Shown in pieces: positions 1-41,815 of a stretch of 64,000 nt of DNA. The DNA comes from Amphiscolops sp. MND2022 (Eukaryota): NCBI GenBank assembly GCA_964187785.1, contig OZ076409.1, forward strand, positions 55,120,001 to 55,184,000. The letters are read 5' to 3'. The position numbers were made by a program, and so were the translations under genes. The notes under the pieces were generated by a model. It was not told the origin of the DNA. It was given only the letters and a program-made list of their open reading frames with translations, and made no database searches. Numbering within the stretch: position 1 is the stretch's first letter; each line of letters opens with the position of its first letter.

Positions 1-287
1 TCATTCAACAATGTATTAGAGTCCTATATGTGCAGTGGCACCAAATTTGTATAGCTGGGATGTGAGAAACATTGCCTAAATTAGCCCAAAAATGGCCAAA
101 AAACAGTCATTTTTCGATTCTCGCAAAAACTGTCTATACGATTCAAACGAAATTTTCTACAGCCATTTTCTACACCGGAACATGGTCATATATGTGCAAT
201 TTTATTAAATTCGTATGACTGGGGATGGAGCGAGTCAGAAGGAAAAAGACCTAAGCCGACTCCTTTACCGCATATGCGGCTCTGGTT
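1..287 (+). mobile_element. Dispersed non-autonomous repeat family B (Helentron/HINE-like); other copies ~3448-3781, ~26832-27233, ~34613-34850
   Basis: Shared body and a shared 3' end (AAGCCGACTCCTTTA-CCGCATATGCGG hairpin-CTCTGG followed by a T run). The 5' GGAGTCGG at ~34614 is the inverse of the 3' CCGACTCC. The class assignment is inferred from structure only. Confidence 0.6.
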
Positions 288-348
288 TTTTACTTCAATT
301 GACAATTCAGAAAAAGTGTTCCAAATGACTTCAAAGTTGTTTGTGGCC

Positions 349-829
349 GTTTTTAGTCGGCGTTTTTTTTGTGAAAAAAGACCGACTATAAGAGTTTTTT
401 TTCGTCAGCCTACAATCTCGCTCTTATTGGGCCACTTTTCTTACAATCGAAACTACTACCATAAGGCGAAGTCCGGTCAGCGGAAGTTAGTGCAAAAGGG
501 TCCCCCTTTCATTTTTCACTTTTTTCAACGTAACCTACAAAACCGGACGAGACTAAAAGGTCCCCCTTTTGAGTTTTTTCGGCACTATGCGACTTTTTTG
601 CCGAAATTTCTTCAATGTCTCAAAAGAGTCCCCTTTCCAGATTTGTGATATTTAGCAACAAAATATATGTCAATAAATCCCAAAGGGTCCCCCTTCTACA
701 TTTTTTCGGCACTATGCGACATTTTCTCTAAGAAAAAAATCAAAAATTTCAAGTTTTCTTTCAAACAAAAGTCTTGCGCTTTTTGAGCCTTAGATATAGC
801 TCCGACTTTAGACGTTCATGTCTTGTTTG
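349..829 (+). mobile_element. Dispersed non-autonomous repeat family A ('GGGTCCCCC' family, Helentron/DINE-1-like); about 10 copies in the window
   Basis: 5' TTTTAGTCGGCG...CCGACTA, internal GGGTCCCCC-containing repeats, and a 3' GAGCCTTAGATATAGC(G/T)CCGACT-TT-AGACGTTC(C/T/A)(C/T)GTCT-TGTTT end (subterminal inverse plus hairpin, T-rich flanks). Other copies: 3843-4048+18215-18501, 24421-25015(-), 36242-36670, 41140-42005(-), 42497-42990, 46125-46541, 53828-54420(-), 57315-57812(-). Confidence 0.7.
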
Positions 830-2475
830 TGATTCGACAAGATTGAAAAAACTTGCGTGAAGCCATTATATTAGTGTCGTTTTCATATAAATTGCCTAGT
901 TTTTGTTTACTGTTTTTTTCGTTTTTCACACGAAGTCTAACGAAATGATCAGCGACACATGGAGATTATGAGCTGATGTGTTTCTAAACTTTTGCATGTG
1001 ACCTATGTTCATCGTTGTCACGGCTGCCGAGTTCCTAATAATAATGATTATATAAGTTGTTCCTTATCGGGTGCCTTACGTGGTTTTATGTTACCAAGTG
1101 GTTGGCACACACCCGTGGGCTCCAAATGAGGAGAAACAATGAGCGAGAATGCTTATCAGAAGACTTATTACCCATGCGGGCCCTTATTTCAGTAAACCGG
1201 CAGAAATGAACGAAATTGTTAAATTAGCAACCCATCATTGTCCAAAAGAGCAACCGCCTGAAAACTGAAAAGTTTACATCCTCGTTTCTGTGAAAATCAC
1301 TTCTTGCAGCTCCGACCCGCAATGTCAGTAATTTTTTGTCAGTGTTGCATGTATGTGTAACAGGCAACTACCTGCTTAGTCGTGGTTTTTGTCTCACTCA
1401 GTTAATCCCATGCTTTTGATTTATACTTTGAAGAGATTAGAAATGAGTTCCATAGCAGGAATACGACCCTATGATTTTGCTAATTCAACTATGACTATAA
1501 CGATTGTCTCATTCCTCATCATGAAAAAAGATTGTGGACAAACTTTTCGGAATTTACATAGTTTGTCGTTTTTTTGCAACTGAAAACGTGTGATATGAAA
1601 GTTTTATGTTGAAAATCAAAAAGATGCAAAAAGTGCTGTCTTGAGCCTCAGTTGTCTCCTATTGCGTTTTTATCCTCTATTCGGTACCCTTGTCACTATT
1701 GATCCTTAGCATTTTCATATATGGAGAACTCTGGCCTTTCTCGGAAAACGCCCAAATGATGTTTACTGTTTTATAAATTTTTTCGCAGAATTTTTAAATT
1801 AATCTGAACTGCTCTTGCGTGCTACTGAATTCTCTTTTTGTATTTCACCCATTTCTTTTCAGTAATATTCAAATTTCCGAGTTTGTTTATAATGAGTTGT
1901 TTAACTGCACATCATAGATGTTCTTGACACAAAGCGATGTGTTATTTTATTTCCTGAGAATGAACTTCAGTAGATTTTTTTGTTTCAATTTTACCTGCTT
2001 GCTACGAAGTCGAAAGCTGAATTCGTGCTTGCATAAATTATCGAGACTTCACTGAACCCGAAGACAACATCACTGTGTTCCTAATTTTTGTTCAAATGCT
2101 GGTGTTCTAATGAATGTGTTCGGAGATGACGAACCAGGAATGACTGCGTTCTAGACAACATTAAGAATGAAAAAAATTCATGCGCATGAATTCCTTTGGC
2201 TCAGGTGTAGGGGTAGACCTGCATTTTCCGTTCAACTGAAGGCGTTCATAAGCCGTGTGGCGTCGTGAATTCGTATGGTTTTTATTGAATATGGAATTTC
2301 AGTGTTTCCACTTTTCAACAGTTCACTTTAAACTCTATAATTATCACAAGTCTTCCATATATATTGTCAATTACGTTACATTTCTAGCTTCAATATTACG
2401 ACCACAGTCGTATTTTTTATCAATTAAAAGGTCTGGTCTCTTACAAGTATCCGAATTCTTTGAATGCGAGTAAAA

Positions 2476-3447: not shown

Positions 3448-4048
3448 AATTTCTCAAAAACTGTTCATACGAATCGAACGAAATTTTTTACAGTCATTCA
3501 ACACCGTATTAGAGTCCTATATGTGCAGTGGCACCAAAATTGTACAGCTGGGATGTGAGAAACATTGCCTAAATTAGCCCAAAAATGGCCAAAAAACAGT
3601 CATTTTTCGATTCTCGCAAAAACTGTCCATACGATTCAAACGAAATTTTCTACAGACATTTTCTACACCGGAACATGGTCCTATATGTGCAATTTTAATA
3701 AATTCGTATGACTGGGGATGGAGCGAGTCAGAAGGAAAAAGACCTAAGCCGACTCCTTTACCGCATATGCGGCTCTGGTTTTTTACTTCAATTGACAATT
3801 CAGAAAAAGTGTTCCAAATGACTTCAAAGTTGTTTGTGGCCGTTTTTAGTCGGCGTTTTTCTTGTGAAAAAAGACCGACTATTACAGAGGCTAGTTTTTT
3901 TTCGTCAGCCTACAATCTCGCTCTGATTCGGCCACTTTTTTCACAATCGAAACTACTACCATAAGGCGAAGTCCGGTCAGCTGAAGTTAGTGCAAAAGGG
4001 TCCCCCCTTTCATTTTTTACTTTTTTTAACGTAACCTACAAAACCGGA

Positions 4049-4487
4049 TGTAAAATTCTTGGGGTTTTCCGGTTTTTAAATCTCTTTTGCTTTAGGTTTC
4101 TTCAGAGCGGGGCGTGAGGAAGGCTTTACAGAAAAGATTTTATTGTCGATGTTTTATAGTCAACTATTCAATAGAAGCCCAAAAATTCTTGTCCTCAAAT
4201 TTTTGTCATCAATGTTTTATTTTCTTCACTTTATTGTTTCCTGTCATGCGGAAATTAACCAAAATATTTTTTATCAAAAACTGCCCATGCGTGTATTTAG
4301 AGGGTGGGTCATAATATATTTTTATTGCTTTTTTTATTGTTCGTGAAATTACGATTTGCTCTCCGAGGGGTTGTTTTATTAAGATTAAATATTCATAGCT
4401 CCAATTGAGGGTCAAAATAATTAGTGAGGGTTTATATTGATTAGCTTCACAAAGTTTAATACCTTCTAATATTCAAAGAATATTACA
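4049..4487 (-). repeat. 3' LTR (439 bp)
   Basis: TGTAAAATTCTT...AAGAATATTACA imperfect terminal inverted repeat. Matches the interrupted LTR at 16273-18214 with about 19 substitutions by manual count. Confidence 0.95.
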
Positions 4488-4516
4488 CTACCCGACTTTG
4501 ATTCTTTCACTCGCCG
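4488..4516 (-). promoter_or_regulatory. Polypurine-tract-like sequence next to the 3' LTR
   Basis: Minus strand reads GGCGAGTGAAAGAATCAAAGTCGGGTAG immediately before the LTR TGTAAT. Confidence 0.55.
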
Positions 4517-4566
4517 ATTTAAAAAGTTCATCAAAACGTCGAGAAAGTTAGTAGTTTTCTTTCCTT

Positions 4567-6826
4567 TCAAATTTGACCTGTTCGTAGTTGTCTATTGAGT
4601 TGTGAGTAGATTGGGGCATCGGGCTCAGGGTTTCGTGTTTCTTTTAGTTGAGATTCCGGAATCAGCAAACTGTTGTTCCTCCACGGAAATTTTTCGTCGT
4701 TTTCCAATCCTTCCATCCTTCCAGATAATGATCTTCCACCATCATTATCGGTTTCAGTGACACCTTTTGGTTGTCCAGTTTATGGAAGAATGGTAGAAAT
4801 TTTGGTAGTCTCTTGTATCTGTGTAGTGCATACGTAACACCCAGGTGGAGTGCTGTACTAACAAAGAATACTACAAAGCCAATCGCAAGGTGACTTTTCC
4901 ATGACAGATAATTGTTGAACTGTTTCTCCAGGGACGGCTTTAGAGCTGTAAGTTTCTGAGCAATTGGCTGTGCAATATAATTCAAGTCTGAACGGTATGA
5001 ATTATCCGGTTGGGATTGTAGTTCCAATTTCATTGAGCTCAGGAGTTGAATATTCGCTTCCACTCGTGTGTTGTAATGGGGAAGCTGGTCCACTGTTGGA
5101 ATAAGGCTGAACAGTCTAGCCATTGGTTCCGGTAGTGTTACATTGAGTTTCAGTGGTGGAACTTTCATGCAAGTGCTAAGGTCAGATCTGATTCTAACGT
5201 TGGGGCCGATCAATTGTTTACCACAGCGTAGACTCACCAGGCATATCTGACAACCATCTATCGTTGTAGATCCTGCTGTGGTTGTTGCATTCATGTAGGA
5301 TTCACGAAACTTGAAGTTGGATGAGGTTGAGGTTATGAGCCATATTCCATAACCTAGGTTCGTTGCTTTCTCTTTTAGGGGGAGTGTCACAGCTTCGGTG
5401 TCGCAATCTTCAATTGCGTCCATAACATTTCCAAAATAGAGTACTGCCAAGCATGACGCATCTGATGTTTCAGCTGCCATGGTTTCGTGACAAATCTTGT
5501 TTTTGTTGGAGCCGATGCACTTTCCCAGTTGATCACGTGTTACCAATGCGGTTTCTCTTAGGTCTTCAGATATTGCAATATACTCCGTTTCCACAGTCCA
5601 CTGGATTGCATACGCTGTTTCCAGTTGTGGCATGGGGACCACTATTGCTTTGTAGACTGTGAAAACTGTTTGGCGGGATGCCAGTGATTAGACATTGTCA
5701 TCAGCAAGCCATCGTCTAATGTTAGGACGTCTAAGAGCAGTCGCGCTTCATAATACGCCAGAAGCTCGTCCAAGGGAATAGCCAAAGTTAGTCTGTCGCG
5801 GGATTGTAGTTGTTCTGTGGCCACCTGCTGTAGAATAATTTCCAGAGATTCTTTCGGTAACAAGGACATCGGAACATATTGCGTGAGTAAGGAAATTATT
5901 GCATTCATGATGTTCATTTGGAAGGCATACAGTGCTGCTCTGTAGGACTTTACATTACTGTAAATCAAAGATAAGAGTGATAAGATGGTGTCAAAGTTGA
6001 AGTTCACTTGCTGTCGTGTATAGAGCAGTTGATCACAATTTCTCATCTCGTGGATATTTTGCTGAAAGGTGTTGAACTGTTTCTCAATTGCTCTCCAGTT
6101 TTGGTTTTGGGTCCCAATGATTTGTCTTTGGATGCCATGTAACATCTCTAGTTCCTTTGATACTCGTAAAAATTTAGTATCCGTTGAGTTTGCCAGCTGT
6201 TGGATATTTTCGCCCGAAGATATCGCGTATTCTCCCAGTTTTTCAATATTCCTTGCGTTCTGTTTTGCTTTTTCCTGACATGAGCCGATAATACCCATAA
6301 TTCCACAATCTCCAGAGCCAAACATTATGCCACCTCCGAATAAACCGATTGCACCTACCGCTGCTGCTGTTAACGGGAGAGCTCGTTTTTTCCGTGTCCT
6401 TTTGTTTTCTTGTGTACCCTTTAGGAAAGATGCCACGTCACCCTTGATTTTAAGCAGGTCGTTTTGTGCACATGAAATTTCCTTTTGTGTTTCCTTGAGG
6501 AGCCAGTCCATTTTGAAATCTACTTCACTTGTATTTGTGAAGTTGAGATAGCAGAAGTAAGTTGGGGTTTGCCACATATTTTGGAGTGACTGTGCTATTT
6601 GGTCAACATTCGAAATAAGGGTCACTTCAAAGCGTGGGAAAGGGACCAAAAATTGGACATTGATAAATTTTTTTACCAGGAGGATTTTGGTTTCTTCATT
6701 AAAGAAAATGCCCTTGTCCAAGCTGCCTTGACGACTGATACCCTGCGCTATGTGAATGAACAGAATTAAGGAAAGCATTTTGGGCAGAGGTCTAGGCCTC
6801 TCAATCGTAGGGTGTTGTACTAACAT
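4567..6826 (-). pseudogene. env: env: class I viral fusion glycoprotein (F-type architecture), two frameshifts
   Basis: Signal peptide MLSLILFIHIAQG (ATG 6778); furin site RTRKKR followed by fusion peptide ALPLTAAAVGAIGLFGGGIMFG (~6400-6320); heptad region; Cys-rich ectodomain; TM segment LAIGFVVFFVSTALHLGVTYAL. One frameshift at ~5685. An 8-bp duplication (GGAAGGAT, ~4707-4722) shifts the tail, whose restored frame ends ...PIYSQLNRQLRTGQI* at 4567. Confidence 0.88.
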
Positions 6827-6828
6827 TA

Positions 6829-7164
6829 TTAGGGTAGCTCAATCGCCATGTAGTCCAAAAGGTCAAGGAGTTGGTCTTTCATCTGCTGTTGCCCTTTCAT
6901 AGTATTTCTTAGTGTCTGGAGTAGGTAGAAGAGATCCTCAAACTCTGGTGTTTCTTCGTCAATGTCCATGATACTGAAGGTGCTAGTGTTTTCTGTTGTC
7001 GCTTGAATAAAAAGGGGTGCACAACATCCACATTGTTGAGTTTGAATGGTATGGATTAGGATTGGATTTAGCTGTCGCGCCGGAGTCCATTTGAAAGGTG
7101 TCGGGAAAGTGATTTTCATGGGCACTAGTGTAACTCTCACTGTTAGGCCTGGTGATGTAGACAT
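6829..7164 (-). CDS. Orphan 111-aa accessory ORF of the LTR element, directly upstream of env
   Basis: ATG-initiated, uninterrupted and on the element strand. Its stop runs TAA-TAATG into the first env-frame ATG (6826). No recognisable domain. Confidence 0.5.
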   Translation of the reverse strand: MSTSPGLTVRVTLVPMKITFPTPFKWTPARQLNPILIHTIQTQQCGCCAPLFIQATTENTSTFSIMDIDEETPEFEDLFYLLQTLRNTMKGQQQMKDQLLDLLDYMAIELP

Positions 7165-8034
7165 TTTGGGTTATTTACTGTGAGTCAAAGTTGTCATTTC
7201 ATATATGTAGGTAAGGACTCTTTGGAATTTGTTGAGTGTTCAGAATGTTGAATGTTTTGGGTTGAATTTCAAGTAAATTTCAGATAGAATGGGGTTGTTG
7301 ATACCCAATAAAGAATCAATAAATTTTCAGCAGTCTTGTCGGCGTCTTGGTTATTAAATTCAAGCAAATAATTTCAGCAACCACGGAAAAATTTTATTAA
7401 ATAGACGTTATTTTATTATTTGTCACTGTTCGACCGGAATTTCAATAATCTGAACTCATTAGAATGTACTCGCCCGGAAATTTTCAATTTCCATTTTAAT
7501 TGAATTGTTTTGTTGGCCCAAGCTTGAATGGCGTCCCTTTGTTTACTGTTGTTTTATTACCAGACTATCTGCCAAAATGTTGAACTCTGCCAAAATCTGA
7601 ACTTTGCCAAAATGTTGTTCGAGTTCTTTCAGAGCATAAGCATTACCACATAACTTTGTCAAAGTTGCACCAGCTTTTGTGTTGTCCTGGTGGCACTACA
7701 GCTTTCGAAGGTGGGCGTCCAGTCAGTTTTGTACCCAACCGGGATCCGCGTTGTTCCTTAGACGGAAAGACTCCTCAGAAGGGCGGATCAGCCAGTCATT
7801 TTGATGATGACTCCCTCCAGTGTTTGTTTGTGCCCTGGTTGCTTGCCCTGATATTCATAGGGGTAACTTTTCTGTTTTGCCTCGAAAGACTCTGCAACCG
7901 AGATTAACTGGTTTACCTTACTAGATTGAACTTTTTGGATATAGTTAGTTTGCCTTAGTTTGGTTCAATTCTGGTCCCTAAAGCAAGAAACGTATGAAGT
8001 ATGGACTTGAAGGTTCCTTTTTTCCATATTTCTG

Positions 8035-8853
8035 ATGGAGAAATTTAATTTACTCTTGGAACTATGTCAGGGTCAATGCAAGGAAGTTCCACCTGTATCT
8101 GCTGCTGAGGCTGCAAAGTTCGAAAACATTAGTATTGTACGTGGTGTCACATGTTATTATAAAGTTCCGCTGTTACAGCAGTTGTCCGTTGAATGAACCG
8201 ATTTGGCAGTTCTTAAAGAGTCTTTCACCAATTGGGGTGAGGAGAAGCAAAATGTTGAGTTCTCTAGTACTAGTCTGTTAACAGCTTTAATGCCAACGAA
8301 GGATGTGAATGATATTAGCAAATGGTTTCACAGCGCCGTTGTACCCATTGAAAGAGTTTATGAGCCTGTTCTCCTGGTAGCGACTGGTAATTGCTTGACC
8401 GTCTTTCATGTCGATAATAGCCCGCCTACCGAAATTGTGGCTTCTTTATTACGCGGACGTAAATTATGGATATTCGCCAGTCATGGGTCAAAATCAGCAG
8501 CCCGGTTGGTCAAAAGAAAAGAAGAGACAGAATTTCAGCAATTTATTGAAGATCTTATGTTTCATCGTTTCCAAGATCTTTTATTTTGTGTGCAGGAACC
8601 TCGTGATACAGTGTGTTTTCCCGCCAGAACAGTGCATTTTGTTTTGAGTGTGACAGCAGGAAATGAATGGAATTGTTTATTAGGTCATAATATTAGTCAC
8701 AGAGAGGAGGTAGCTACCGCTATGGAAGTGAAAGCTTACAATCGTTGTAGTGGAATTGCTTCTCGTATAGTGCAAGGAAAAACGACAAAGCGGTCTGGTG
8801 TTACAAAGACGCGTTTTACCAATCGTCGAAGAACACAGAACTCTTCAAAATGA
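8035..8853 (+). pseudogene. JmjC-domain (Fe(II)/2-oxoglutarate cupin oxygenase, demethylase/hydroxylase-like) ORF, antisense within the LTR element
   Basis: Motifs LTVFHVD (His 8407-8409, Asp 8413-8415), LLRGRKLWIF (Lys 8461-8463) and CVQEPRDTVCFPARTVHFVLS (His 8635-8637) match the JmjC core T-x-F-H-x-D / G-x-K-x-W / C-x-Q-x-P-G-x-T...P-x-x-x-x-H-x-V. The frame is open from ATG 8035 apart from one TGA at 8194-8196. The C-terminus is basic. Confidence 0.8.
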
Positions 8854-8944
8854 TGGTTAGTCTATTTTAGGAACAAGTTTTTCGAAATCCTTTTATGCAT
8901 ATTTTTTTATGCTATCGCACAGACTGTTTTTTCAAAACCCAGTG

Positions 8945-9690
8945 TGTGTCAGTAGCTGCCGTAAGATGTTTAAGCACAGTTTTTTTAAACAGGTAAGGTC
9001 TTTTTAGAAGGCCTTTTTAGCGTTTTGGGCATTCTAGCCCTTCCGCTATCACCTTGTCGTGTAGTGCTCATGTAACGTGGTCCATTTGGGGGTATTTCGC
9101 GTGGCTGGCCAATTGCACTTAGCCAGTCGCAGTGACAAAATCGGAGTTGTCCGCTAATGTAGGGTAAGGTCGTTTTTGTTTAACATGTATTTTTTTTTGG
9201 TTTTTTGATGGATGAGCGCATCCGCTACCACCCTATGGTGTAGTTCTCATGGAGCACAATCCGGGGAAGGACAATATGCACTGATTTTTTCTTCCACTTA
9301 GCCAGTCGCAGTGGCAAAATTGTCGTTTTTGTGGAAACTTACTGAGGTCGAAAAAAATTGTAACTGGGAGGATGAAGTTTTTCTTATATAATTTTGCTTT
9401 TGCGCGCTTTTTCTATCACCCTATCGTGTAGTACACGTTTAGGGGTATCTGTTGAGGTATTTTCCGTGTCGGAATCTTGTCTCTTTTTCTCAGTCGCAGT
9501 CGCAAACTGTCAATTTTTATCATAAGGTCAGATAGGACTTTTTTTCTAATAGGGTATTTATGGATCAGCAATGCTTTTTGAAGGTACAATAGATACCCTA
9601 TCTTGTAGATGAAATTCTAAGGTGTCCATCAGTGTGTTTTTTGTATGGTTAACATGTCACTTTTTTATGTTCGCAGTGTCAAAATGTGGT
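8945..9690. repeat. Degenerate tandem array, period ~178-188 bp, four units plus a partial one
   Basis: Box A CTAYCACCYTRTSGTGTAG at 9046, 9225, 9413 and degenerate ~9592; box B CAGTCGCAGT..CAAA at 9124, 9303, 9491 and ~9668; T(A/G)AGGTC at 8995, 9165, 9343, 9523. Confidence 0.75.
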
Positions 9691-9917
9691 CAATGCCAAA
9701 TGTCGTATGTCAAGATAGTCGATTCTCTGCTCATTTTTCGAAAAGTGTCTTGTCTAAAGACATGTCCTTGAAGTTTTGCTGCAGAAATTTTTCAATCCAT
9801 GGGTTTTTTGCAGGTTGTGGAAGTGGAGGAACATAGAGTTTTCACGGTTTTCAAGGCTAAATTCAGTTGGTTGGTTAATGTTAACTTACGGGTGTCTGGT
9901 ATGGGAAGGTTGGTCCG

Positions 9918-10365
9918 TCATTGGGCGTAGGGTGCTCTGTGAGGAAATACACAAACGGTTATCGTCAAATTCGTGTGTTGGAAGACTTCTATCAAGAGGT
10001 TGCGTACTTGTTGCCATGGGAGTTTGTCTCTTCCACATCCAAGTTTGGGTAATCGGATTTTATCTACTCCATACCGTTGAGCATGGTCACGCATCAGTAG
10101 AAGGCTTTAACGCAGTGATGCAATTGAAGGCTTGTGGAAAAATTTTCGTTTCGTCACCAAGTTGTATATCCATTGTCGGGAATACTTGTCATAGAATGCA
10201 AAAACTGAACCAGGAGCAAGGTTCTTCGATGATTGTGTTTTTATTCGGGGTTATAGCCTGTCAAACCGGTCGGCTATACCTATACCCATTGCAAAGTCCG
10301 AAGACACGCAGTGTGCCATACTAGAGGACGAACAGAAGATGTTGTCATAGACTATGTTGACATTG
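9918..10365 (-). pseudogene. TARG1/OARD1 (Poa1p-like) macrodomain, ADP-ribose glycohydrolase-like, downstream of integrase
   Basis: Manual translation: VNIVYDNIFCSSSSMAHCVSSDFAMGIGIADRFDRL*PRIK...WIYNLVTKRKFFHKPSIASLR*SLLLMRDHAQRYGVDKIRLPKLGCGRDKLPWQQVRNLLIEVFQHTNLTITVCV. This carries the AHC-x-S-x-D-x-x-MG-x-GIA, L-(I/V)-TK and P-x-(I/L)-GCG-x-D-x-L-x-W motifs. Internal stops at 10251-10253 and 10107-10109. Confidence 0.88.
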
Positions 10366-11086
10366 TTTCTTGTCTGACATATTTCATTGATGCCTGGGCG
10401 TGATCTTTTTCCATTGGATCCTTCTTGTTGAGATCCAGGTCTTTGGACAAATTGCGTTTGCTGGCGTTCTAATCTGCGGTTTTGAGTAGGTCAATAAAGT
10501 TACGTGCTTCTTTGATTTCTCCTTGTGATGTCCGTTTCATGGGGTTTGAGGTTTTCAGTTGTCTTCCCACAGCTTCAATCAGTCTAAAGTTTGGTTGAGG
10601 TTGTGTGGCTATTCTTTCTGATCTGCGCAGGGGTTGTATTGTTTCAGGGTTTTCATCCGAACTGTCGGAAGTTTCTGGTATGTCTGCGGTCAGGTTGACT
10701 GGGGGTGCTAGTCGTATACTCGTATGGTCCGGTTCTACTATGGTGTGGTTTTCATTCGCGGTATTGGGGTTTCTCGCTGGTGGTATAGGTAGTGGTAGGT
10801 GTTGTTGGGCCTGATTGCTTTTTCCAAAGGAAATTGAAACTCTTACTGGGCTATCAAATGTTGTCGGTTGAACAGACTCAACAGGTGTGTCATCTTGTAG
10901 TAATGATGGGTAACCTCTGTCGAAGTAATCTGTGTCTCCTCTGTTATGTCCCAGTTCTAAAATTTGCAGGGCCTATTTCGGGAATGTCTTCAACTTGGTA
11001 TTGTGGTGTAATAGGTCTGATCCTGATTCTATGCACAATCTGTGTATAGTTTGTTCCAATTTTGCGAATAAGATAATTAGAGTCTG

Positions 11087-11833
11087 TCAATACTTTTCCC
11101 CTCCATAAAGTGCATGCCATTTTTGTATTAATTTGGAGCTGAAGGTAGATTGTTCTGTCAGTTTAGGGTTTAGTAGGAGGCAAAACTGGTGTTGTTGTAA
11201 TGGGTTTGCACGTGCTTTCTGATCATAATACCTGCGGTATCGTGCGAAAGACTTTACGAGACTCTCTTTTGTTTCGGAGAATTTCTTCAACATTTCATCT
11301 CGTAAAGATTCCACAAAGTCGTAATTGAAAGCTGCCTTTCGGATACATGTGCTGTAGAATCTGAGATCCAACGGTTTCATTGGTTCTCTGCCGTAGAAGA
11401 GTACTGTTGGTGCGCATCCAATAGAAGTATGGTATGATGTATTGTGGATGAAAGTCACCAAAGGTACGTACCGATGCCAGTTTGTTAACGTATCATTACT
11501 GTTTAGTTTGAGGATTCTTGTGAGTGCTGCGTGTGATCGTTCAAGTGCTCCAATTGTCTGTGGGTGCTTAAGAGAGGGATGTGTAATTTTGTTTTCCAAG
11601 AGCTTTGTAAGTTCACTAAAAAGTTCTGAGACAAATTGTGTTCCAAGGTCCGATATTATTTCTTTTGGTATATAGCTGTGATTGAACATAATTGAGGCCA
11701 ATGCTGCAGCTACTGATGGCGCACTTATTGTGGTCAAGGGCACAGCAAAAAGGTATTTGGAAAAGACAACAATTGCTGTGAGCACATATTTATACGGAGA
11801 TGAGGGAAATGCTCCTTGAATATCGATCTGCAT
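11087..11833 (-). pseudogene. pol: pol: integrase catalytic core
   Basis: MQIDIQG...IISDLGTQF...HPQTIGALERSH (D,D35E pattern). A frameshifted C-terminal extension continues below 11087. Confidence 0.92.
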
Positions 11834-11887
11834 TATGTCTCCGGGGAAGGATGTTTTTGAAGATAGTTCGCTTAGCGGAGGTTTGAG

Positions 11888-13255
11888 TCAAGTTGGTTGG
11901 ACAAGTTTGAGTTGTAAACAGGTTGAGCAGTTTCTGATGTGGCTTGCAATTTGTTCTATGTCATTCGGGCAGTAAAAGCGCCTACGAAACTCGGCGATTG
12001 TTCTTGTTATTCCCAAATGTCCTCCTGTGGGTGAATTATGTATTCTATAGAGGATTTCTTTTAGCATGTGTTTGGGTACACATACTTGTTTATGAAGGAT
12101 AGTACCATCATGGTCGTAATAGTTCCGTTTAAGGATTCCATTGTCTATGATTAATCGCGGGAGTTGTTTCCGATATTTCTGTTCTTCTCCTGATGAATAA
12201 ATATTATGTGGTGGTTCTGTACCTTCTGTAAGCCAGGTTGTCACTTTCGAGAGTAGGGCGTCATTTTGTTGTTCCCTTTCTAGAGTTGCCACCGATGTCT
12301 CAAGTTCTGGATAATTGTCCATCGGGTTTTGTAATTGTAGTGCGTTGATCGGGACTGCTTGTTTGTATCTGGTCAATTGGATTTCTTCATTTTGGGTTGC
12401 CAGGGCTTTTTGGTGTTGTGAGGCATTCTCAAAGTTTCCAGATTGTTTCAATGTTATTAATGTGTTCATATCAACCACTTGAAGTAAGTCATCGGGGAAT
12501 TCACCAGAGAAAAGTTCATTAATTGTATTGTCTGGTAATTTAGCTCGAATATCAATCTCTACTTCGCGTACCGGAATACGGTCTGTAAGTTTGAATTCTA
12601 CTGTTTCGTTCGAATTTGGTTGCAGGCGAGATAAAAAATCCGCTGCTGCGTTTGCTTTCCCGGGAATATGAGCGACTACTATGTTGAATGTGGTTACTCT
12701 GTCGACATAGCTCCAAAGGGATGGAGGAATTGTCTTTGCTTGACAGAAGCGTGTGAGGCTTTTGTTATCTGTCAGTATCAGTACAGGTTTTTCGCTACCC
12801 CATATGAAGTGTGAGAAGGTTTCTAGAGCAAAACAAAATGACAGGAATTCTTTGCAGTAGATTGGCATTTTCAACTGAGCTGTCTTGAAGACTTTCGATC
12901 CAAATGAGACTGGTGCGTATGACTTTACATCTTCACCTTTCTCATTTTTGACATAGTCTTCAATCATGAGTACGAATCCACTCGAATGGTAACTTGCGTC
13001 ACAAAAAATTACATAATGTAGTCCTGGTTTTGCCAATCGTAGTGTTTGCGTTGCAGTTGTTTTGAGTTTCTCCTTCAAGGTTTCAAACGAATCCAGTATT
13101 TCTTCTGTCACTTTGAATACCACATTTTTCCGCAGCAGTTTATAGAATGGTAAGATATGCTCATTCAAATTGGGGTTGAAGTTTCTGAAAAACTGAAGGA
13201 AACCTATCAGTCTTTTTACTTGTTTAACAGATTTTGGTATATCCAGTGTTTTCAA
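11888..13255 (-). pseudogene. pol: pol: RT connection, RNase H and integrase HHCC zinc-binding domain
   Basis: VIFCDAS, ILTDNKSL, HIPGKANAAADFLSR; HNSPTGGHLG...CSTC. Confidence 0.92.
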
Positions 13256-13263
13256 GATATTCT

Positions 13264-15060
13264 CTATTTTGTTTCTGGTTTTAGGCCTTCTTTGGTAATC
13301 ACATTTCCAAGAAAACTAACTTGTTCAGAACCAAATACACACTTTTTTGGAGATAATTTGAGTCCTGAGCGTCTGAGGCCTTGAAATATTTGTCTGAGGT
13401 ATGGTTCCAAATAGTTTCTCACAAAAGCACTGAATCCGGTTACAGATCGGTTCAATCCTCTCGCTAATCGCTGATAGGCTAGGGTTCGTGAAGCAAAGTT
13501 GAATGCCAGTAGTTGTACCGAGAGTGGGTCTGCCATTTGTACACAATGGTAGGCCTGAGAGCAATCAAATTTGCAAAACAGTTTCTTTCCGGCAAAATGA
13601 GCAGTTGTGTCTGCCCTTGTTGAGAATGGAAAGTTATTGTTGTGATAATCATGAAGGAGTAAATGGTTGATACGGCGTAGGTCTACTAGGATTCGAAGTT
13701 CTCCATTAGTTTTACGGTGTGCGAAAATTGGACTGCTATATTTTGAATGGTTGAGGCTGGTGATAATTCCAAAATATTGTAAGAGTGCAAGTTCAACCTG
13801 TAGTTCCTCTCGTAAGTGTATTGGTGTCGGTGGGCTTTGCGTGTAGACAGGTTTATCATGTTCAGGAGTCAATTTCATTGTTATTTCCGAATTATAACTG
13901 ACGTCAAATCTATGTTTGGCAAATATATCCGAGAATTCAATCAGTAGCTCTTCTAGTTTTTGTTTTTGATGTGGATTCAGTACTGAGTCTTTCCATTGGA
14001 ATCTTTGGAGGAATATTTCACGGTAGTTAGCGTCCATTTGTGGGTCTATATTTTCTAACTCTTGGAGCTTCAATAGTTCCTCATAAATCCTTTTTTCCAC
14101 TCCTTGAAGATTTTCCGTATTTCGACAAGTTTCTGGGGTCTGGAACCAAAAACTTTTGTAGTCTGGTTGAGGTCTAGGAGGTTGCGATTCTGAGTTAAAA
14201 GTTTGATCTATTACCAATTGGTTTATTCCAGTGACTAAATCATCTGGGTTTTTGAATTTTGCTAAAGTCAGTAGTTGAGGGTCAATTGGTGTTAAGGTTT
14301 CAGCTTGTTGGGGTGAGAGAAATTTAAAGAGAGCAATGTCTGAATTTCGAGGTATCGTGACTTCATTTTCTTGAAGGTTCAATGCAGAAATGAATAGGTG
14401 ACCTGAAGAGTCAACTTTCGAAAGGGATGAGATTATGCACAAACCCGTTTTTTCCTCGAAACTAGTTTTCGGTTCGACTATCCCGCAAAGCTCCGATACT
14501 TTATTCTTGGAGAGTAACACGCATTTTAAAATTGTTTGTTGGTTCGGGGCAATCGTTGTTTTCTCGACCGTTCTAATTGAGTACTGGGGTTTTGTAGTTT
14601 TCTCAAGTTTGTCCATTTCATTCAATTGTAGTGTCAGGTCTGGAAGTTTCATCAAGTTTTCTTTTGGGTATAGTTCTACGGAGTTATTTTTGAAGAAAGG
14701 GTTTCCCAAAATAATACTACTTGTATTGGGCAGAACAAGGAATGTTTCCTTAAAGGAATGATTGGCAATGGAAAATTGGAGTTCTATTTGGCCACGCACA
14801 GGTATAAGTTGTCCGGAAGCTAATTTCACTTTACTGACCTGTTTTGGTGTAGTGAGTTGCGAGATGTTTCCACCCACAAGAAGATTTCAAGTCTTCATAG
14901 TCATGTTCATTGATGGCATTTGCACAGGCTCCAGTGTCAATTAGAGCTTTTCTCGTTTCTTTAGAGAAAAATTTTAGTGGTACATAGGATAGAATATCAC
15001 CCTGAAGGGATATGCATGCAGTAATTTGGTGGTCCTCTCTTTGTGTCGTTTCTTCCGTTT
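13264..15060 (-). pseudogene. pol: pol: aspartic protease and reverse transcriptase (frameshifted; catalytic DD block deleted)
   Basis: ALIDTGACANAI protease motif (~14930). RT motifs YSSPIF, LRILVDLRRIN, KFDCSQAYHC, RLARGL and GLKLSPKKC. No (Y/F)xDD between YLEP and YLRQIF. Confidence 0.92.
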
Positions 15061-15081
15061 TGTCTTCATACTGGCGTGGCT

Positions 15082-16242
15082 CTACTCGTTTTTTGGTGCT
15101 GTTCGATATGGAATTTGCTGGTTTCTCTGTGCTGGTTGACGTTGAATACAATCCTTGGCGTAGTGGTTTGGGTATCCACAGTTGTAACATACATTTTTCG
15201 AGTAACTGGTCTCTTCAATATGTCCATCATCAGATGACTGTTGTAGCTGTGGGTTGTTGTTACCATAGTTGTTTTGGTTACCTCTGTTATTGTTGTATTT
15301 GCCATAGCACCCTCTGTTGTTGTTATATCTACCTTTTCCTCTGTTGTTTCCTCGATTGAAGTTTCCTCTTCCTCTGTATCCTCTCGAGTTATTATATCTG
15401 TTGTTACCTCTGTAGTTAGAGTTTCTGTTCTGATTATTGTCGTTGTTGTAATTCTGGTTACCCATGTTTTGACAGCTGAATGTGTTGATTCTGTTCGACA
15501 TTTCAGTTTGGTGTTGTTTGATTTCATCTTGTTGTTGAGTTAATTTAGTTAATGCACTAACCAAGTTTTCTGAGAGCGTTGTACTCACTTCGTTGAATGC
15601 GTCTCTGGACCAATCGTCACTCGGGCACAGCTCAAAGAACACCATTTGCCTTCGAGCCACAGTGCACAAGTCTTGAACTGTTGCTGCTTCATTTTGATCC
15701 AAAAGTTTTCTTTTAATGAAGTTTGGCATTGAGTTTGTGAAGATTTCTTTTATCCTTCTGTTTCTTTCATTTGTCGCATTGTCCAAAACAGTCTGATTCG
15801 CTGCTTCTGTTGCCGCAACTCTGGCAATTCCAGCTTGGTCATTTGGTGGATTAGCTGGTGGAATAGGTGCAAACACTGGGTCAGGATAGGCTTGTGTTGC
15901 TTTGATTTGCACTTGTACGAGGAAGTCTTCTGGGCTACCAGTTTTGTGATCAAATTTCAAGTTATGTAGTTGTAATTCTCGAAGATTTGGGTTACAGTAG
16001 TGGTTGCGCAGAGCTGTAATGGCTGCATCGAAGTTATCTCTTGTAGCTTGTGGTAATGTTCTAAAGAATTGTAGGGCTTGGTCTAGTAGATGTAGTTGCA
16101 GGAATTGTGGTCGGTTTGCCGCTGGGATGTTCCCCACATTGATCAAGCTTCTGAGTAGACTCTCAAAATCTGGCCAATTTTCATCTGGTTTTCCGCGGAA
16201 TGGGTTGAGTAAGATGTGTGGTTGAGGGTTTGCAGCTGCCCT
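15082..16242 (-). pseudogene. gag: gag with CCHC zinc knuckle and an Asn/Arg/Gly-rich region
   Basis: The frame is open from 16242 (AGG GCA GCT GCA..., probably a mutated ATG) through PFRGKPDENWPDFE. It contains CYNCGYPNHYAKDC and overlaps the start of pol. Confidence 0.88.
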
Positions 16243-16254
16243 TGTCTTTTCCTC

Positions 16255-16272
16255 ACTTCCTCCTTGTCACCA
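16255..16272 (-). promoter_or_regulatory. Primer-binding site
   Basis: Minus strand TGGTGACAAGGAGG... starts immediately after the CA end of the 5' LTR; TGG is complementary to the tRNA CCA end. The priming tRNA was not identified. Confidence 0.7.
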
Positions 16273-16398
16273 TGTAAAATTCTTGGGGTTTTCCAGTTTT
16301 TAAATCTCTTTTGCTTTAGGTTTCTTCAGAGCGGGGCGTGAGGAAGGCTTTACAGAAAAGATTTTAGTGTCGATGTTTTACAATCAATTATTCAATAG

Positions 16399-16968
16399 GG
16401 GAACAAGACGTTTCGGCACAAGACGTTTCGGCAACAAAATGGCGGAAGACGTTTCGGCAACAAAATGTTGCCGAAACGTCTTTCACCTGCTGTGAAGACG
16501 TTTCGGCACCAAAGACGTTTCGGCAACAAGAAGAATAATCTGTAGTTTTCTTTAGTATGAAACGTGCCCCATATATGTCCCCATTTCCTCTAGTGCCCCG
16601 CGGCCCCTTGGGGCCGCTTATATTCCCATCTTGCTAAGCGAGGTCGAACAGGAGCAAAGACCTAGCGGAAACGGAGATCGCGAAGCGATCGTAGTGGGAG
16701 CTGGTCTTTGCGACGGTGAGGGCGAGCGTGCATACACCGAATATGCCCCCACATTAGAAGGGGAAAGTCCTGAAAATTTTGCAAGACATTCACGAAAAGT
16801 AAAAATTTATTCTTAAGAAGTCAAAAAAAGTCACAAAATGTTGCCGAAACGTCTTTCACCTGCTGTGAAGACGTTTCGGCACCAAAGACGTTTCGGCAAC
16901 AAAAAGTTGCCGAAACGTCTTCCGCCATCTTGTTGCCGAAACGTCTTGTGCCGAAACGTCCGGAACCC
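16399..16968. mobile_element. Foldback-type MITE with arms of AAGACGTTTCGGCA(A)C repeats, 8-bp TSD
   Basis: TSD TTCAATAG (16391-16398, 16969-16976); GGG...CCC termini; long modular inverted arms. Confidence 0.88.
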
Positions 16969-17056
16969 TTCAATAGAAGCCCAAAATTTCTTGTCCTCAA
17001 ATTATTGTCATCAATGTTTTATTTTCTTCACTTTATTGTTTCCTGTCATGCGGGAA

Positions 17057-17971
17057 GGGTGGCTGTAAATAGGTCGAATTTTTGGTAAATGGTCACTTGG
17101 CTTAATGCCATTTGGCTTAAAGTCATTTGGCTTAATACAATTGGTCACTTGGCTTAATTTTTTTAAGCTAAGTGTCTCGGGAATTGGTCACTTGGCTTAA
17201 AGTCATTTGACTTAAAACCACTTAGTTGAAAACACGTGACAGATTTTGTCGAATTTATCTTTATAACGGAATCAGCGTATCAATATAACATGTCATATCA
17301 AGTACCCCTCGTATATGTCCCCATTTCCTCTAGTGCCCTGCGGCCCCTTGGGGCCGCTTGTATTCCCATCTTGCTAAGCGAGGTCGAACAGGAGCAAAGA
17401 CCTAGCGGGAACGAAGATCGCGAAGCGATCGTAGTGTGAGCTGGTCTTTGCGACGGTGAGGGCGAGCGTGCATACACCGCATATGCCGCGCATTATGATA
17501 TTTCCGGGAGTTGACATATTTTTTCCTTGAGTTAGAACGGAGTTGGCTTAATTTTGTGGTCACTTGGCTTAAAATTTTTAAGCCAAATGACTCGACGAAA
17601 AAATTAAGCCAAATGGTATTAAGCCAAGTGACTGGTAACCGAATTTTTCTGGTCGAAAGGACAGAGGTCGAACCTTTTGATCGAATTGCAGAGATCGAAT
17701 GGAATGCGGTCGAATTTTATCGTATTTGTTGCATGGCTCGGTCGCTTCGCTCCCTTCGCCAAGTAGCAACATTGAGGCATGGCCATATGGCACGTCGCTC
17801 CGCTTCGCTTCGCTCCTGCATTCAGGGCACTAGGGGTATGTGAACATATCTGACTACGTTATAAAAATTTCGATCCGAGTTGTTTCGATCCCATTCAAAA
17901 ACTTTGGTATGTCGACCTGAGGACTAACTCTGATTTTCGATCCCGTTCCTTCGTTCTACTTCCGCCCACCC
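17057..17971. mobile_element. MITE, second copy of 2975-3326, containing a nested MITE
   Basis: 9-bp TSD ATGCGG(G/A)AA (17048-17056, 17972-17980). The body matches 2975-3326. Confidence 0.88.
17084..17640. mobile_element. Foldback-type MITE with arms of GTCA(C/T)TTGGCTTAA repeats, 8-bp TSD
   Basis: TSD GAATTTTT (17076-17083, 17641-17648). Termini GGTAAATGGTCACTTGGCTTAA and TTAAGCCAAGTGACTGGTAACC. Confidence 0.88.
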
Positions 17972-19131
17972 ATGCGGAAATTGACCAATATATTTTTTAT
18001 TAAAAACTGCCCATGCGTGTATTTAGCGTGTGGGTCATAATATATTTTTTATTGCTTTTTTTATTGTTCGTGAAATTACGATTTGCATTCCGGGGGGTTG
18101 TTTTATTAGGATTAAATATTCATAGCTCCAATTGGGGGTCAAATTAATTAGTGAGGGTATATATTGATTAGCTTCACAAAGTTTAATACCTTCTAATATT
18201 CAAAGAATATTACACCGGACGAGACTAAAAGGTCCCCCTTTTGATTTTTTTCAGCACTATGCGACTTTTTTTCCGAAATTTCTTCAATGTCTCAAAAGAG
18301 TCCCCTTTCCAGTTTTGTGATATTTTGCAACAGAATATATGTCAATAAATCCCAAAGGGTCCCTCTTTTCTACATTTTTCGGCACTATGCGGCATTTTCT
18401 CTAAGGAAAAAAATCAAAAATTTCAAGTTTTCTTTCAAACAAAAGTCTTGCGCTTTTTGAGCCTTAGATATAGCTCCGACTTTAGACGTTCATGTCTTGT
18501 TTGTGATTCGACAAGATTGAAAAAACTTGCGTGAAGCCATTATATTAGTGTCGTTTTTATATAAATTGCCTAGTTTTTGTTTACTGTTTTTTTTCGTTTT
18601 TCACACGAAGTCCAACGAAATGATGGAGATTATGAGCTGATGTGTTTCTAAACTTTTGCATGTGACCTATGTTCATCGTTGTCACGGCTGCCGAGTTCCT
18701 AATAATAATGATTATATAAGTTGTTCCTTATCGGGTGCCTTACGTGGTTTTATGTTACCAAGTGGTTGGCACACACCCGTGGGCTCCAAATGAGGGGAAA
18801 CAATGAGCGAGAATGCTTATCAGAAGACTTATTACCCATGCGGGCCCTTATTTCAGTAAACCGGCAGAAATGAACGAAATTTTTAAATTAGCAACCCATC
18901 ATTGTCCAAAAGAGCAACCGCCTGAAAACTGAAAAGTTTACATCCTCGTTTCTGTGAAAATCACTTCTTGCAGCTCCGACCCGCGATGTCAGTAATTTTT
19001 TGTCAGTGTTGCATGTATGTGTAGCAGGCAACTACCTGATTAGTCGTGGTTTTTGTCTCACTCAGTTAATCCCATGCTTTTGATTTATACTTCGAAGAGA
19101 TTAGAAATGAGTTCCATAGCAGGAATATGAC

Positions 19132-30717: not shown

Positions 30718-31278
<561 letters not shown>

Positions 31279-31345
31279 TGAAACAGTTAATAAAGCGCTC
31301 AAAATAACTAAAATGAAACAGGATATGGAATTCTCTTTAACATGA

Positions 31346-31840
<495 letters not shown>

Positions 31841-32112
31841 TAGTTAGAAAATTATATGTTGAAACTTTTCGTGAATTTTCCTAGAATGGGCTTAAATGTC
31901 GTTTTCGTTCACCGTGGAGCTATATCAGTTGGTTCAAGCGTCGCGTACCGCTGAAGTTTTGTTACCTTCAAAAACAACCATACAGTTTTGAGCTTTCAGG
32001 TTGAAAATTTTCGAATTTTTTTCGCAAAGGATGACAAATAGAAATTCACACACGTGTCGCCTGATCAGTTTGCAAATATCTCTTTTAGATTCATTGTCAA
32101 AAACTGTCATAG

Positions 32113-32577
<465 letters not shown>

Positions 32578-33129
32578 TAACCCCTGAAATAATAAAAAAT
32601 ATTAAAATCCTGTTTTTTGAAGTGTTTAAACAATTTAGCTACAATTTTGGGCCGTTTGTTATTTACTCATCTAACTTAGCTACCAAGTTGATTTAATGTT
32701 TTCATCGTTTTCTTTTTAAGGCGTGAATGCAAAACTTCATTAAACATCACTTGGAATATCGTTTCTTGGTAAAGTGTCAAAAAATTGTTGTCCTTCATTC
32801 AAGTAACAAAGCTTATGGTCCAACATAGCTTATTTGAATGTTTTATATATTTTATTCGAGAATCAGCTTGTAATTGCAGCAAAGAATCGCATGTAAAGCT
32901 TTGCTGTTGCAAATTTTGTCAAATTTTTATTCCCTTTGAGCTGAAATGTATACTTGATGCATTTTTTTGGAAATTTGTTTGCAGTCGCAGTCTTGATACT
33001 GGGTCGCTTTTTCGTTGAAATCTGACTTTTTGAATCCTTGTGCGGTCTCTAATAAACTTTCCAAATTTTTCGAATCTTTGTTGGCTTCCCATCTAGCTCA
33101 CATTTGCTAGTTGTCCTATCTGATATTAA

Positions 33130-33381
<252 letters not shown>

Positions 33382-41315: not shown

Positions 41316-41815
41316 GTCTCACAATGCCAAAAAACTGAAAGGGGGACCCTTTGAGGTTTTTCAACATCCATTATGTCGCAAAACATGAAGAAATTGAAAA
41401 CAAAAATTTTCATTTTCGGGAAAAAATCTCACAATGCCGAAAAAAACTGAAAGGGGGGACCCTTTGAGGTTTTTCAACATCCATTCTGTCGCAAAACATG
41501 AAAAAATTGAAGAAAACAAAAAATTTCATTTTCGGGAAAAAATCTCACAATGCCGAAAAAAACTGAAAGGGGGGACCCTTTGAGGTTTTTCAACATCCAT
41601 TCTGTCGCAAAACATGAAAAAATTCAAGAAAACAAATATTTTCCTATTCGGGAAAAAATCTCACAATGCCGAAAAAAACTGAAAGGGGGACCCTTTGGGA
41701 TTTTTCAACATCCATTCTGTCGCAAAACATCAAAAAAATGCAAGGGGACCCTTTGGGAAAAAAAATTCGAAAAAAAGTCCCGCAATGCCGAAAAAACTGA
41801 AAGGGGGACCCTTTA
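41316..41815. repeat. Tandem ~115-118-bp repeats inside a family A element
   Basis: TCTCACAATGCC(G)AAAAAA(A)CTGAAAGGGGGACCCTTT recurs at ~41317, 41427, 41543, 41659 and 41779. Confidence 0.9.

What the first reader, a model, noticed from the sequence alone, without database searches (positions are those of the whole stretch)
8945..9690. Array of ~180-bp units with conserved boxes at fixed spacing and divergent spacers, between the convergent macro and JmjC genes
Box A (CTAYCACCYTRTSGTGTAG) and box B (CAGTCGCAGT..CAAA) start exactly 78 nt apart in units 1-3 (9046/9124, 9225/9303, 9413/9491), while the sequence between them has diverged almost completely. Unit periods are about 179, 188 and 178 bp. 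The most protein-like minus frame (LHDKVIAE/LHHRVVAD/LHDRVIEK) has stops at the same two positions in units 1 and 2, which favours a DNA- or RNA-level function. Inferred options: nucleosome-spaced protein-binding sites (compare the tandem motifs bound by VANC anti-silencing proteins of plant VANDAL elements), an enhancer or insulator, or a processed small/structured RNA array with variable guide-like segments.
Basis: partly seen in the sequence, partly recalled or inferred. Interest (0 to 1): 0.72.

Follow-up and report, generated by a model that had tools for sequence, protein, structure and literature searches.

The report
Small-RNA-gene-like array inside a retrotransposon
A virus-like jumping gene in an animal genome carries four copies of a 180-letter non-coding unit laid out like small-nuclear-RNA genes, which, if confirmed, would mean such elements make their own small RNAs.

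Summary
The array is real. Four ~180-bp units (plus a remnant) lie between the convergent 3' ends of pol (with a C-terminal macro domain) and an antisense JmjC gene, inside a complete env-bearing Ty3/gypsy element (4049-18214) in an animal genome. The region is non-coding and has no shared fold apart from a hairpin-shaped box A. Best reading (0.40): read on the element's own (minus) strand each unit is an snRNA-type gene: box B as PSE-type promoter 56 nt from an invariant A, RNA starting with the box A hairpin, a variable body, box C, then a 3'-box-like signal (p about 0.02); the window's only perfect 3' box closes the array. The PSE match itself is not significant and all motif tests are post hoc. 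Main rival (0.28): DNA protein-binding modules (enhancer/insulator). No other copy, genome or RNA data could be reached, so expression and cross-copy conservation are untested.

The parts
8945..9700 (.). array of four ~180-bp units plus a remnant
9668..9685 (-). box B, unit 4 (first on the minus strand; candidate PSE-type promoter)
   Evidence: 8 of 12 to the published human PSE consensus
9590..9608 (-). box A, unit 4 (degenerate, hairpin broken); predicted start A at 9615
9524..9529 (-). box C after unit 4; 3'-box-like 9521-9510 (3 mismatches)
9491..9508 (-). box B, unit 3
   Evidence: 7 of 12
9413..9431 (-). box A, unit 3 (dyad/hairpin); predicted start A at 9438
9344..9349 (-). box C after unit 3; 3'-box-like 9338-9323 (2 mismatches with a 4-nt gap, 3 with the published 0-3 gap)
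9303..9320 (-). box B, unit 2
   Evidence: 7 of 12
9225..9243 (-). box A, unit 2 (dyad/hairpin); predicted start A at 9250
9166..9171 (-). box C after unit 2; no 3'-box-like sequence follows (5 mismatches)
9124..9141 (-). box B, unit 1
   Evidence: 8 of 12
9046..9064 (-). box A, unit 1 (dyad/hairpin); predicted start A at 9071
8995..9000 (-). box C after unit 1; 3'-box-like 8990-8976 (2 mismatches)
8950..8967 (-). degenerate fifth box B with no box A 78 nt away
   Evidence: 5 of 12
8861..8874 (-). perfect match to the published snRNA 3' box consensus, the only one on either strand of the window
8035..8853 (+). antisense JmjC gene, 272 codons, one stop in this copy; H-x-D...H kept; basic C-terminal tail
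9918..10400 (-). TARG1/OARD1-type macro domain at the C-terminus of pol (3 stops in this copy)
10400..15214 (-). pol: protease region, RT, RNase H, integrase; broken by stops, frameshifts and a deletion in RT
15082..16266 (-). gag with zinc knuckle
4662..6838 (-). env-like class I fusion protein in two frames
   Evidence: features only; no Pfam hit at cut-off
4049..4487 (-). 3' LTR; target-site duplication CCGGA
16273..18214 (-). 5' LTR split by two insertions; pieces 96.1, 96.6 and 94.7% identical to the 3' LTR
7568..7617 (+). 17-bp x 2.8 repeat upstream of JmjC holding TGNCAAAAT, the same word as the 3' half of box B

Best explanation
A cluster of four snRNA-type (SNAPc/PSE, Pol II, 3' box) small-RNA genes carried on the sense strand of an env-bearing Ty3/gypsy element. 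Shown: four homologous non-coding units with three boxes, a fixed B-A distance and free A-C and C-B distances. Inferred: box B is the promoter element; transcription starts at the invariant A 7 nt before box A; the RNA (roughly 60-95 nt) begins with the box A hairpin, runs through a variable A-rich body and ends near box C, cut at a 3' box just behind it; the next promoter follows. Because a 3' box works only on transcripts from an snRNA-type promoter, the element's full-length RNA from the LTR could read through. The RNAs most likely act as decoys or regulators of host silencing or RNA-processing factors, in line with the two other accessory parts (JmjC oxygenase, macro ADP-ribose hydrolase); this last step is a guess.
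For: B-A distance 78 in 4 of 4, while B-C and C-A differ in every unit: the pattern expected if B sets the start site and A is the 5' end of the RNA. On the minus strand the array reads as four complete B-A-C units plus one remnant; on the plus strand only three are complete. Centre of the PSE frame in B to the invariant A is 56 nt; PMC1761439 gives 50-55 bp for animal PSEs and reports weaker conservation running on behind the PSE (passages), as in this spacer. 3'-box-like sequence within 15 nt after C scores 2, 5, 3, 3 mismatches, p 0.018-0.030 against the element and the window (0.010-0.015 with a 4-nt gap allowed). The only perfect 3' box among about 128,000 positions lies on the minus strand 76 nt past the last B. 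All 4 variable sites of box A in units 1-3 fall in loop or bulge (p 0.009). One TATA-like site only, and no T-run to stop Pol III in three of the four predicted RNAs, fitting Pol II. Promoter-3' box coupling: PMC5493778 section 2.
Against: The PSE match is not significant: 7-8 of 12 per unit, reached by 1.4-5.5% of positions; column-shuffle p 0.12 for B, and box A on the other strand scores just as well (p 0.09). Unit 2 has no 3'-box-like sequence; unit 4 breaks the hairpin; no compensatory change. The perfect 3' box is not where a complete unit would put it (121 nt past the last C). No Rfam match in the array, no shared fold, no Sm site in three of four predicted RNAs. The motif tests were made after looking at the sequence, among about ten motif classes tried, and use human consensus sequences in a host whose snRNA promoters I could not see. 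No expression data and no second copy.
Confidence: 0.4

Rival explanations
1. DNA-level protein-binding modules (internal enhancer, insulator or anti-silencing platform): a dyad site (A) and an asymmetric site (B) held 78 bp apart, about one turn of DNA round a nucleosome, in nucleosome-length units; no RNA product.
For: Box A is a dyad without compensatory changes, as fits a dimeric binder. Period 177-188 bp. TGNCAAAAT occurs 13 times in the window, 6 of them in the element: 3 in B boxes and 3 in the repeat upstream of JmjC. Tandem arrays next to pol and antisense ORFs are common in plant Retand elements (PMC11963269, passages); VANC targets form tandem repeats (PMC5735166, passages). The one-turn figure is recalled.
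Against: Enhancer sites rarely need an indel-free 59-nt spacer; it does not explain box C or the 3'-box-like signals; no 10-bp AT/GC periodicity of note; the upstream motif is one triplicated event chosen after the fact; no element-encoded DNA-binding protein found.
Confidence: 0.28
2. RNA signals in the element's full-length RNA or in the JmjC 3' UTR (export, packaging, localisation, splicing), each unit giving one protein-binding hairpin (A) and short motifs.
For: Position just 3' of pol; box A folds as a bulged hairpin in units 1-3; plus-strand fold of the whole array z -2.6 on 20 shuffles; acceptor-like sites at three B boxes and AG|GT at every C on the plus strand; host donors are weak.
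Against: No common fold on either strand (alifold no better than column shuffles in 9 of 10 tests; best 9 of 200, a 4-bp stem). Single-stranded signals need no fixed 78-nt distance. The plus strand is T-rich, and 9 acceptor-like sites occur in 8853-9950.
Confidence: 0.12
3. Old tandem duplication decaying without function.
For: Units only 46-65% identical; four sequences only; boxes picked after the fact.
Against: Invariant columns cluster in two blocks (p 1e-5; 0.003 within the block); zero length change over 78 nt against different lengths in both other segments.
Confidence: 0.1
4. Plus-strand snRNA-type genes of spliced-leader kind: A as PSE, leader from B to a donor at C, U-rich Sm-like tract behind.
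For: Box A holds TCACCNT in 2 of 4 units and scores 7-8 of 12; AG|GT at all four C boxes; an acoel has SL trans-splicing (PMC9911081, passages).
Against: Similarity to that published leader is not significant (p 0.14-0.39; best unit matched by 3.6% of tiles); Sm-type site in 1 of 4 units; no SL-type shared fold; A centre to B start is 69 nt; the host is not shown to be an acoel.
Confidence: 0.07
5. Relic of a repeat-protein gene.
For: 78 is a multiple of 3; one plus frame gives TL(S/W)C in all four units.
Against: 11 and 12 stops in 236 codons; stops shared by units 1 and 2; no codon-phase bias (2.84, 3.0, 3.0); periods 179 and 188 break frame; none of 65 candidates scored E <= 10 for that frame, lengths 128-408 aa only, though JmjC and RT of sister copies are in the same collection. 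The minus frame was not searched.
Confidence: 0.03

Closest known systems
Herpesvirus saimiri U RNAs (HSURs)
   Same: A virus-like genome carrying a cluster of short non-coding genes; HSURs are viral Sm-class RNAs that regulate host RNAs (abstract starts of PMC9226524 and PMC13158664); that they use U-type promoters and 3' boxes is recalled.
   Different: DNA herpesvirus, not an LTR retroelement; HSURs carry Sm sites, which three of the four predicted RNAs lack; no sequence match (Rfam); expression here untested.
Animal Pol II snRNA genes (PSE + 3' box)
   Same: Fixed distance from an upstream element to a start A, no TATA, 3'-box-like signal at the end, tandem copies.
   Different: PSE match not significant; bodies match no known snRNA; units only ~180 bp apart; inside a retroelement.
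Retand/Grande (Tat lineage) plant Ty3/gypsy elements
   Same: Long pol-3'LTR region with an antisense ORF and tandem arrays, often next to pol, function unknown (PMC11963269, passages).
   Different: Their units are 8-100 bp and found by Tandem Repeats Finder, which misses this array; antisense ORF is TRP28, not JmjC; no env; plants.
VANC targets of VANDAL DNA transposons
   Same: Motifs multiplied by tandem repeat formation in non-coding parts of an element that encodes a possible anti-silencing protein (PMC5735166, passages).
   Different: 8-9-nt motifs bound by VANC; here three boxes with fixed geometry, an LTR element, and no VANC-like protein.
Orchid Gypsy elements with an AlkB-like 2-ODD domain
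   Same: Ty3/gypsy element with an extra 2-oxoglutarate dioxygenase ORF (PMC9289625, passages).
   Different: AlkB family, not JmjC; the paper's text has no mention of JmjC or macro; no such array reported in the passages seen.

Membership tests
Pol II snRNA-type genes | PSE matching the host's snRNA promoters | tested here: inconclusive
Pol II snRNA-type genes | PSE centre about 50-55 bp upstream of the start | tested here: inconclusive
   56 nt to an invariant A; the start site is predicted, not measured
Pol II snRNA-type genes | 3' box behind each RNA | tested here: inconclusive
   2, 5, 3, 3 mismatches after box C, p 0.02-0.03; one perfect box at the end of the array
Pol II snRNA-type genes | no TATA box | tested here: met
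   one TATA-like site in 8853-9950, outside the B-A spacers
Pol II snRNA-type genes | short capped non-polyadenylated transcripts, Integrator-dependent ends | not testable with these tools
   no run listed
Sm-class RNAs (U snRNAs, HSURs) | Sm site between stem-loops | tested here: not met
   minus-strand RAU4-6G matches lie at B boxes, outside the predicted RNAs; a U7 run in unit 3 only
Spliced-leader RNA genes | leader like the host SL, ending at a donor | tested here: not met
   AG|GT present on the plus strand, but similarity to the S. roscoffensis leader p 0.14-0.39; host identity not established
Pol III type 2 (tRNA-like, BLV-type miRNA) genes | A box plus B box, hairpin, T-run | tested here: not met
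   A-box-like word in units 1-2 (minus) and once on plus, no B box; no tRNA
C/D snoRNA clusters | RUGAUGA and CUGA boxes | tested here: not met
   no RTGATGA on either strand; no Rfam match
CRISPR/TIGR-like guide arrays | conserved repeats with unrelated spacers matching targets | tested here: not met
   spacers homologous to each other; no exact match over 13 nt elsewhere in the window; rest of genome not available
Retand/Grande arrays | [quoted passage not shown] | tested here: met
Retand/Grande arrays | plant Tat lineage, TRP28 ORF, no env, units of 8-100 bp | tested here: not met
   animal host, JmjC ORF, env-like ORF, units 177-188 bp
VANC/VANDAL anti-silencing | element-encoded VANC protein | tested here: not met
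   no such Pfam family among the 13 element frames scanned
VANC/VANDAL anti-silencing | protein binds the repeated motif and lifts silencing | not testable with these tools
   needs EMSA/ChIP

The most novel reading that the evidence does not exclude
An env-bearing LTR retrotransposon family in an invertebrate carries its own cluster of SNAPc/Integrator-type small-RNA genes, the retroelement counterpart of herpesviral HSURs, beside a JmjC oxygenase and a macro ADP-ribose hydrolase, together forming a three-part counter-silencing kit.
Probability: 0.35. Interest if true: 0.85.

Novelty: new variant of a known kind. Interest (0 to 1): 0.62.

Why it matters
[quoted passage not shown] This array is old enough that selection has separated fixed from free parts, so it makes a sharp, cheap prediction (four minus-strand starts at named positions). 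If true, retroelements can encode snRNA-type genes without cutting their own genomic RNA. Independently, the element itself is unusual: a JmjC gene with intact metal ligands in 22 of 25 near-full-length relatives plus a TARG1-type macro domain and env; my searches found no paper holding JmjC, LTR retrotransposon and macro domain together and none of the 4 listed describes such an element, within a library that lacks most subscription journals.

Tried and rejected
No genome is held. No sequencing run was listed, so no reads were laid; this is no evidence on expression. Related-locus scans found no relative: JmjC in viral contigs and metagenome contigs, pol in viral and prokaryote genome contigs. 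Box B-box A pattern scans: 0 in viral and genome contigs; 12 loci in metagenome contigs, each a single match with spacings 79-87 nt, no array, no element protein, GC 0.40-0.58: taken as chance. Earlier-finding look-ups returned nothing. Rfam: 16 weak matches in 3900-18300, none in the array; none at gathering score in the window. tRNA none. Whole-unit RNA fold rejected. SL identity rejected. Read-through products of JmjC relatives gave no view of the array in other copies. Resemblances to T-box, CTCF, nuclear-receptor, initiator and recombination-signal motifs were noted by eye from recall and not tested. A guide listed for the human U2 locus in PMC9138887 (one table passage), read in reverse, shares a short word with box B of units 1-2; that it lies in the U2 PSE is my recall, so it is not counted as evidence. 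PMC5054213, PMC9841428, PMC1790723 and two preprints (passages only) gave no invertebrate PSE sequence. The SL RNA figure in the supplement of PMC9911081 is a picture and gave no sequence; bioRxiv supplements were closed.

Full report
Setting. The finding lies inside a complete LTR element, 4049-18214, on the minus strand: LTRs with TG...CA ends and a CCGGA duplication, gag with zinc knuckle, RT, RNase H and integrase, and an env-like frame whose features resemble class I fusion proteins (no Pfam hit at cut-off). A relative of pol is closest to Ty3 Gag-Pol among solved structures and ends in a TARG1/OARD1 macro domain; 9 of the 120 listed RT relatives match the macro region of the window. So the macro domain is the end of pol (stop near 9917). 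The JmjC gene runs the other way (8035-8853). It has 17 relatives at 51-95% identity, all from one source class; 22 of 25 relatives of 250 aa or more keep H-x-D...H; a model of one relative (pLDDT 75) matches TYW5, FIH, JMJD5 and PHF2/8, and a wider profile weakly hits KDM7/PHF8 (E 0.005-0.07). The LTR pieces are 95-97% identical and the genes carry a few stops and frameshifts, so this copy is decayed but recent. The host is an intron-bearing animal (AHCYL-type gene at 30.7-33.4 kb). That it may be an acoel is my guess from composition and repeat load (GC 0.368 outside the element; 36.7% and LTR-rich in PMC9911081); it is not shown.

Observation. Box A stands at 9046, 9225, 9413, 9590 and box B at 9124, 9303, 9491, 9668: 78 nt in 4 of 4. 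A degenerate B stands at 8950 and a third box, RAGGTC, at 8995, 9166, 9344, 9524. B-C is 45, 42, 41, 33 nt and C-A 51, 59, 69, 66 nt. Mean identity over the four units: A 0.75, spacer 0.44, B 0.82, 45 nt before A 0.38, 14 nt after B 0.29. The spacer is above shuffles (0.27; 0 of 20,000) and only in register 0, so it is homologous and free of indels, not unrelated. Invariant columns cluster in the two boxes (p 1e-5 over 140 columns; 0.003 inside the 96-column block, where the best single window alone gives 0.056). No further unit exists in the window.

Not protein. The two best frames hold 11 and 12 stops in 236 codons against 1 in 272 for JmjC; conservation shows no codon phase; the plus frame found no protein among 65 candidates of 128-408 aa. 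The minus frame was not searched.

Not one folded RNA. Joint folding of the four units was no better than column shuffles in 9 of 10 windows and strands; the tenth (9 of 200) is a 4-bp stem in B. Box A alone is a dyad, CTA-Y-CAC-N6-GTG-TAG: in units 1-3 all 4 variable sites are in loop or bulge (p 0.009), with no compensatory change, and unit 4 breaks it. This fits a hairpin or a dimer site equally. Rfam and ARAGORN find nothing in the array.

First idea, plus strand, rejected. Box A resembles the 5' half of the human PSE consensus printed in PMC5493778 at 8, 7, 8, 7 of 12, and each C offers AG|GT, which suggested spliced-leader genes. Similarity to the published acoel leader was not significant (p 0.14-0.39) and only one unit has an Sm-type site.

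Minus-strand reading. Scanning with the published 3' box consensus gave one perfect match in the whole window, on the minus strand at 8874, 76 nt past the last B. Read on that strand the array is four complete B-A-C units and a remnant. Box B scores 8, 7, 7, 8 of 12 against the PSE consensus, which is not significant (column-shuffle p 0.12; A gives 0.09). The centre of that frame is 56 nt from an A invariant in all four units, 7 nt before box A; animal PSEs are centred 50-55 bp upstream of the start, with weaker conservation continuing behind them (PMC1761439, passages). Within 15 nt after C the best 3'-box-like sequence has 2, 5, 3, 3 mismatches (p 0.018 against the element's minus strand, 0.030 against the window; 2, 5, 2, 3 and p 0.010-0.015 with a 4-nt gap). 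Segments from the invariant A to just past C are 80, 88, 98 and 95 nt; a 3' box lies some 9-19 nt behind the RNA end (recalled), hence RNAs of roughly 60-95 nt. There is no TATA in the spacers and no T-run in three of four, so Pol II rather than Pol III. 3' box processing is coupled to an snRNA-type promoter (PMC5493778 section 2), so such genes need not cut the LTR-driven RNA. This model accounts for which distance is fixed (promoter to RNA 5' end), which are free (RNA body; gap to the next promoter) and for the hairpin pattern of A.

Weight. All motif tests came after inspection and among about ten motif classes; they use human consensus sequences; unit 2 lacks a 3' box; the perfect box is displaced from where a complete unit would have it; and nothing on expression or other copies could be obtained. 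I give the model 0.40, DNA protein-binding modules 0.28 (dyad A, nucleosome-length period, TGNCAAAAT shared with a small repeat upstream of JmjC), RNA signals in longer transcripts 0.12, neutral decay 0.10, plus-strand SL-like genes 0.07, protein relic 0.03.

Known kinds. The layout (antisense ORF and tandem array after pol) matches plant Retand/Grande elements, whose arrays have unknown function (PMC11963269, passages), but lineage, ORF, env and unit size differ. The working model is like herpesviral HSURs (abstract starts only) without Sm sites. VANC targets (PMC5735166, passages) are a functional analogy only. A search for retrotransposon, encodes, small nuclear RNA, HSUR, viral snRNA (4 of 5 terms) listed 3 papers, none on a retroelement-borne snRNA-type cluster by title and abstract start; a search for SL RNA gene, retrotransposon and PSE (3 of 4 terms) listed 25 of 26, none such by title. 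The library lacks most subscription journals.

Verdict. Real, selected, non-coding array in an unusual element; a new variant of pol-3'LTR arrays, with a roughly one-in-three chance of being a retroelement-borne snRNA-type gene cluster. Interest 0.62.

Noticed in passing
window 8035-8853 (+): Stand-alone ~270-aa JmjC gene with a basic C-terminal tail, antisense in a Ty3/gypsy element; many subfamilies in the same source class and more distant stand-alone relatives at 28-40% identity. Possibly as interesting as the array.
   Followed up: partly
window 9918-10400 (-): TARG1/OARD1-type macro domain ends pol here and in 9 of 120 listed RT relatives.
   Followed up: partly
window 8987-9000 and 9158-9171 (-): The predicted RNA ends of units 1 and 2 read GACCUUACC, complementary to a 5' splice-site consensus; units 3 and 4 keep only the first five or six letters.
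   Followed up: no
window 7568-7617 (+): 17-bp x 2.8 repeat about 420 bp upstream of the JmjC start, each copy holding TGCCAAAAT.
   Followed up: partly
window 16399-16968 and 17057-17970: Two insertions in the 5' LTR; the first is bounded by inverted arrays of a 15-17-bp unit, MITE-like.
   Followed up: no
window 1-1468 vs 3494-4048 and 18214-19132: A nearby copy of the repeat into which the element inserted, without the insertion: an empty-site equivalent at 95-96% identity.
   Followed up: partly
window 6829-7170 (-): 113-codon frame just upstream of env, no family hit at cut-off.
   Followed up: no
window 4662-16266: CpG observed/expected is 0.51-0.72 in gag, env and pol but 0.86-0.89 in JmjC, array and macro, and 0.96 outside the element.
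   Followed up: no
window 30770-33380 (+): Host AHCYL-type adenosylhomocysteinase gene with short introns and weak donors.
   Followed up: partly
window 49089-50444 (-), 19321-20607 (+): EGF-repeat exons of a host gene, and pieces that look like a hAT-type transposase (by eye; label recalled).
   Followed up: no
window 41313-41737: 116-bp tandem repeat, 3.7 copies, 93% matches.
   Followed up: no
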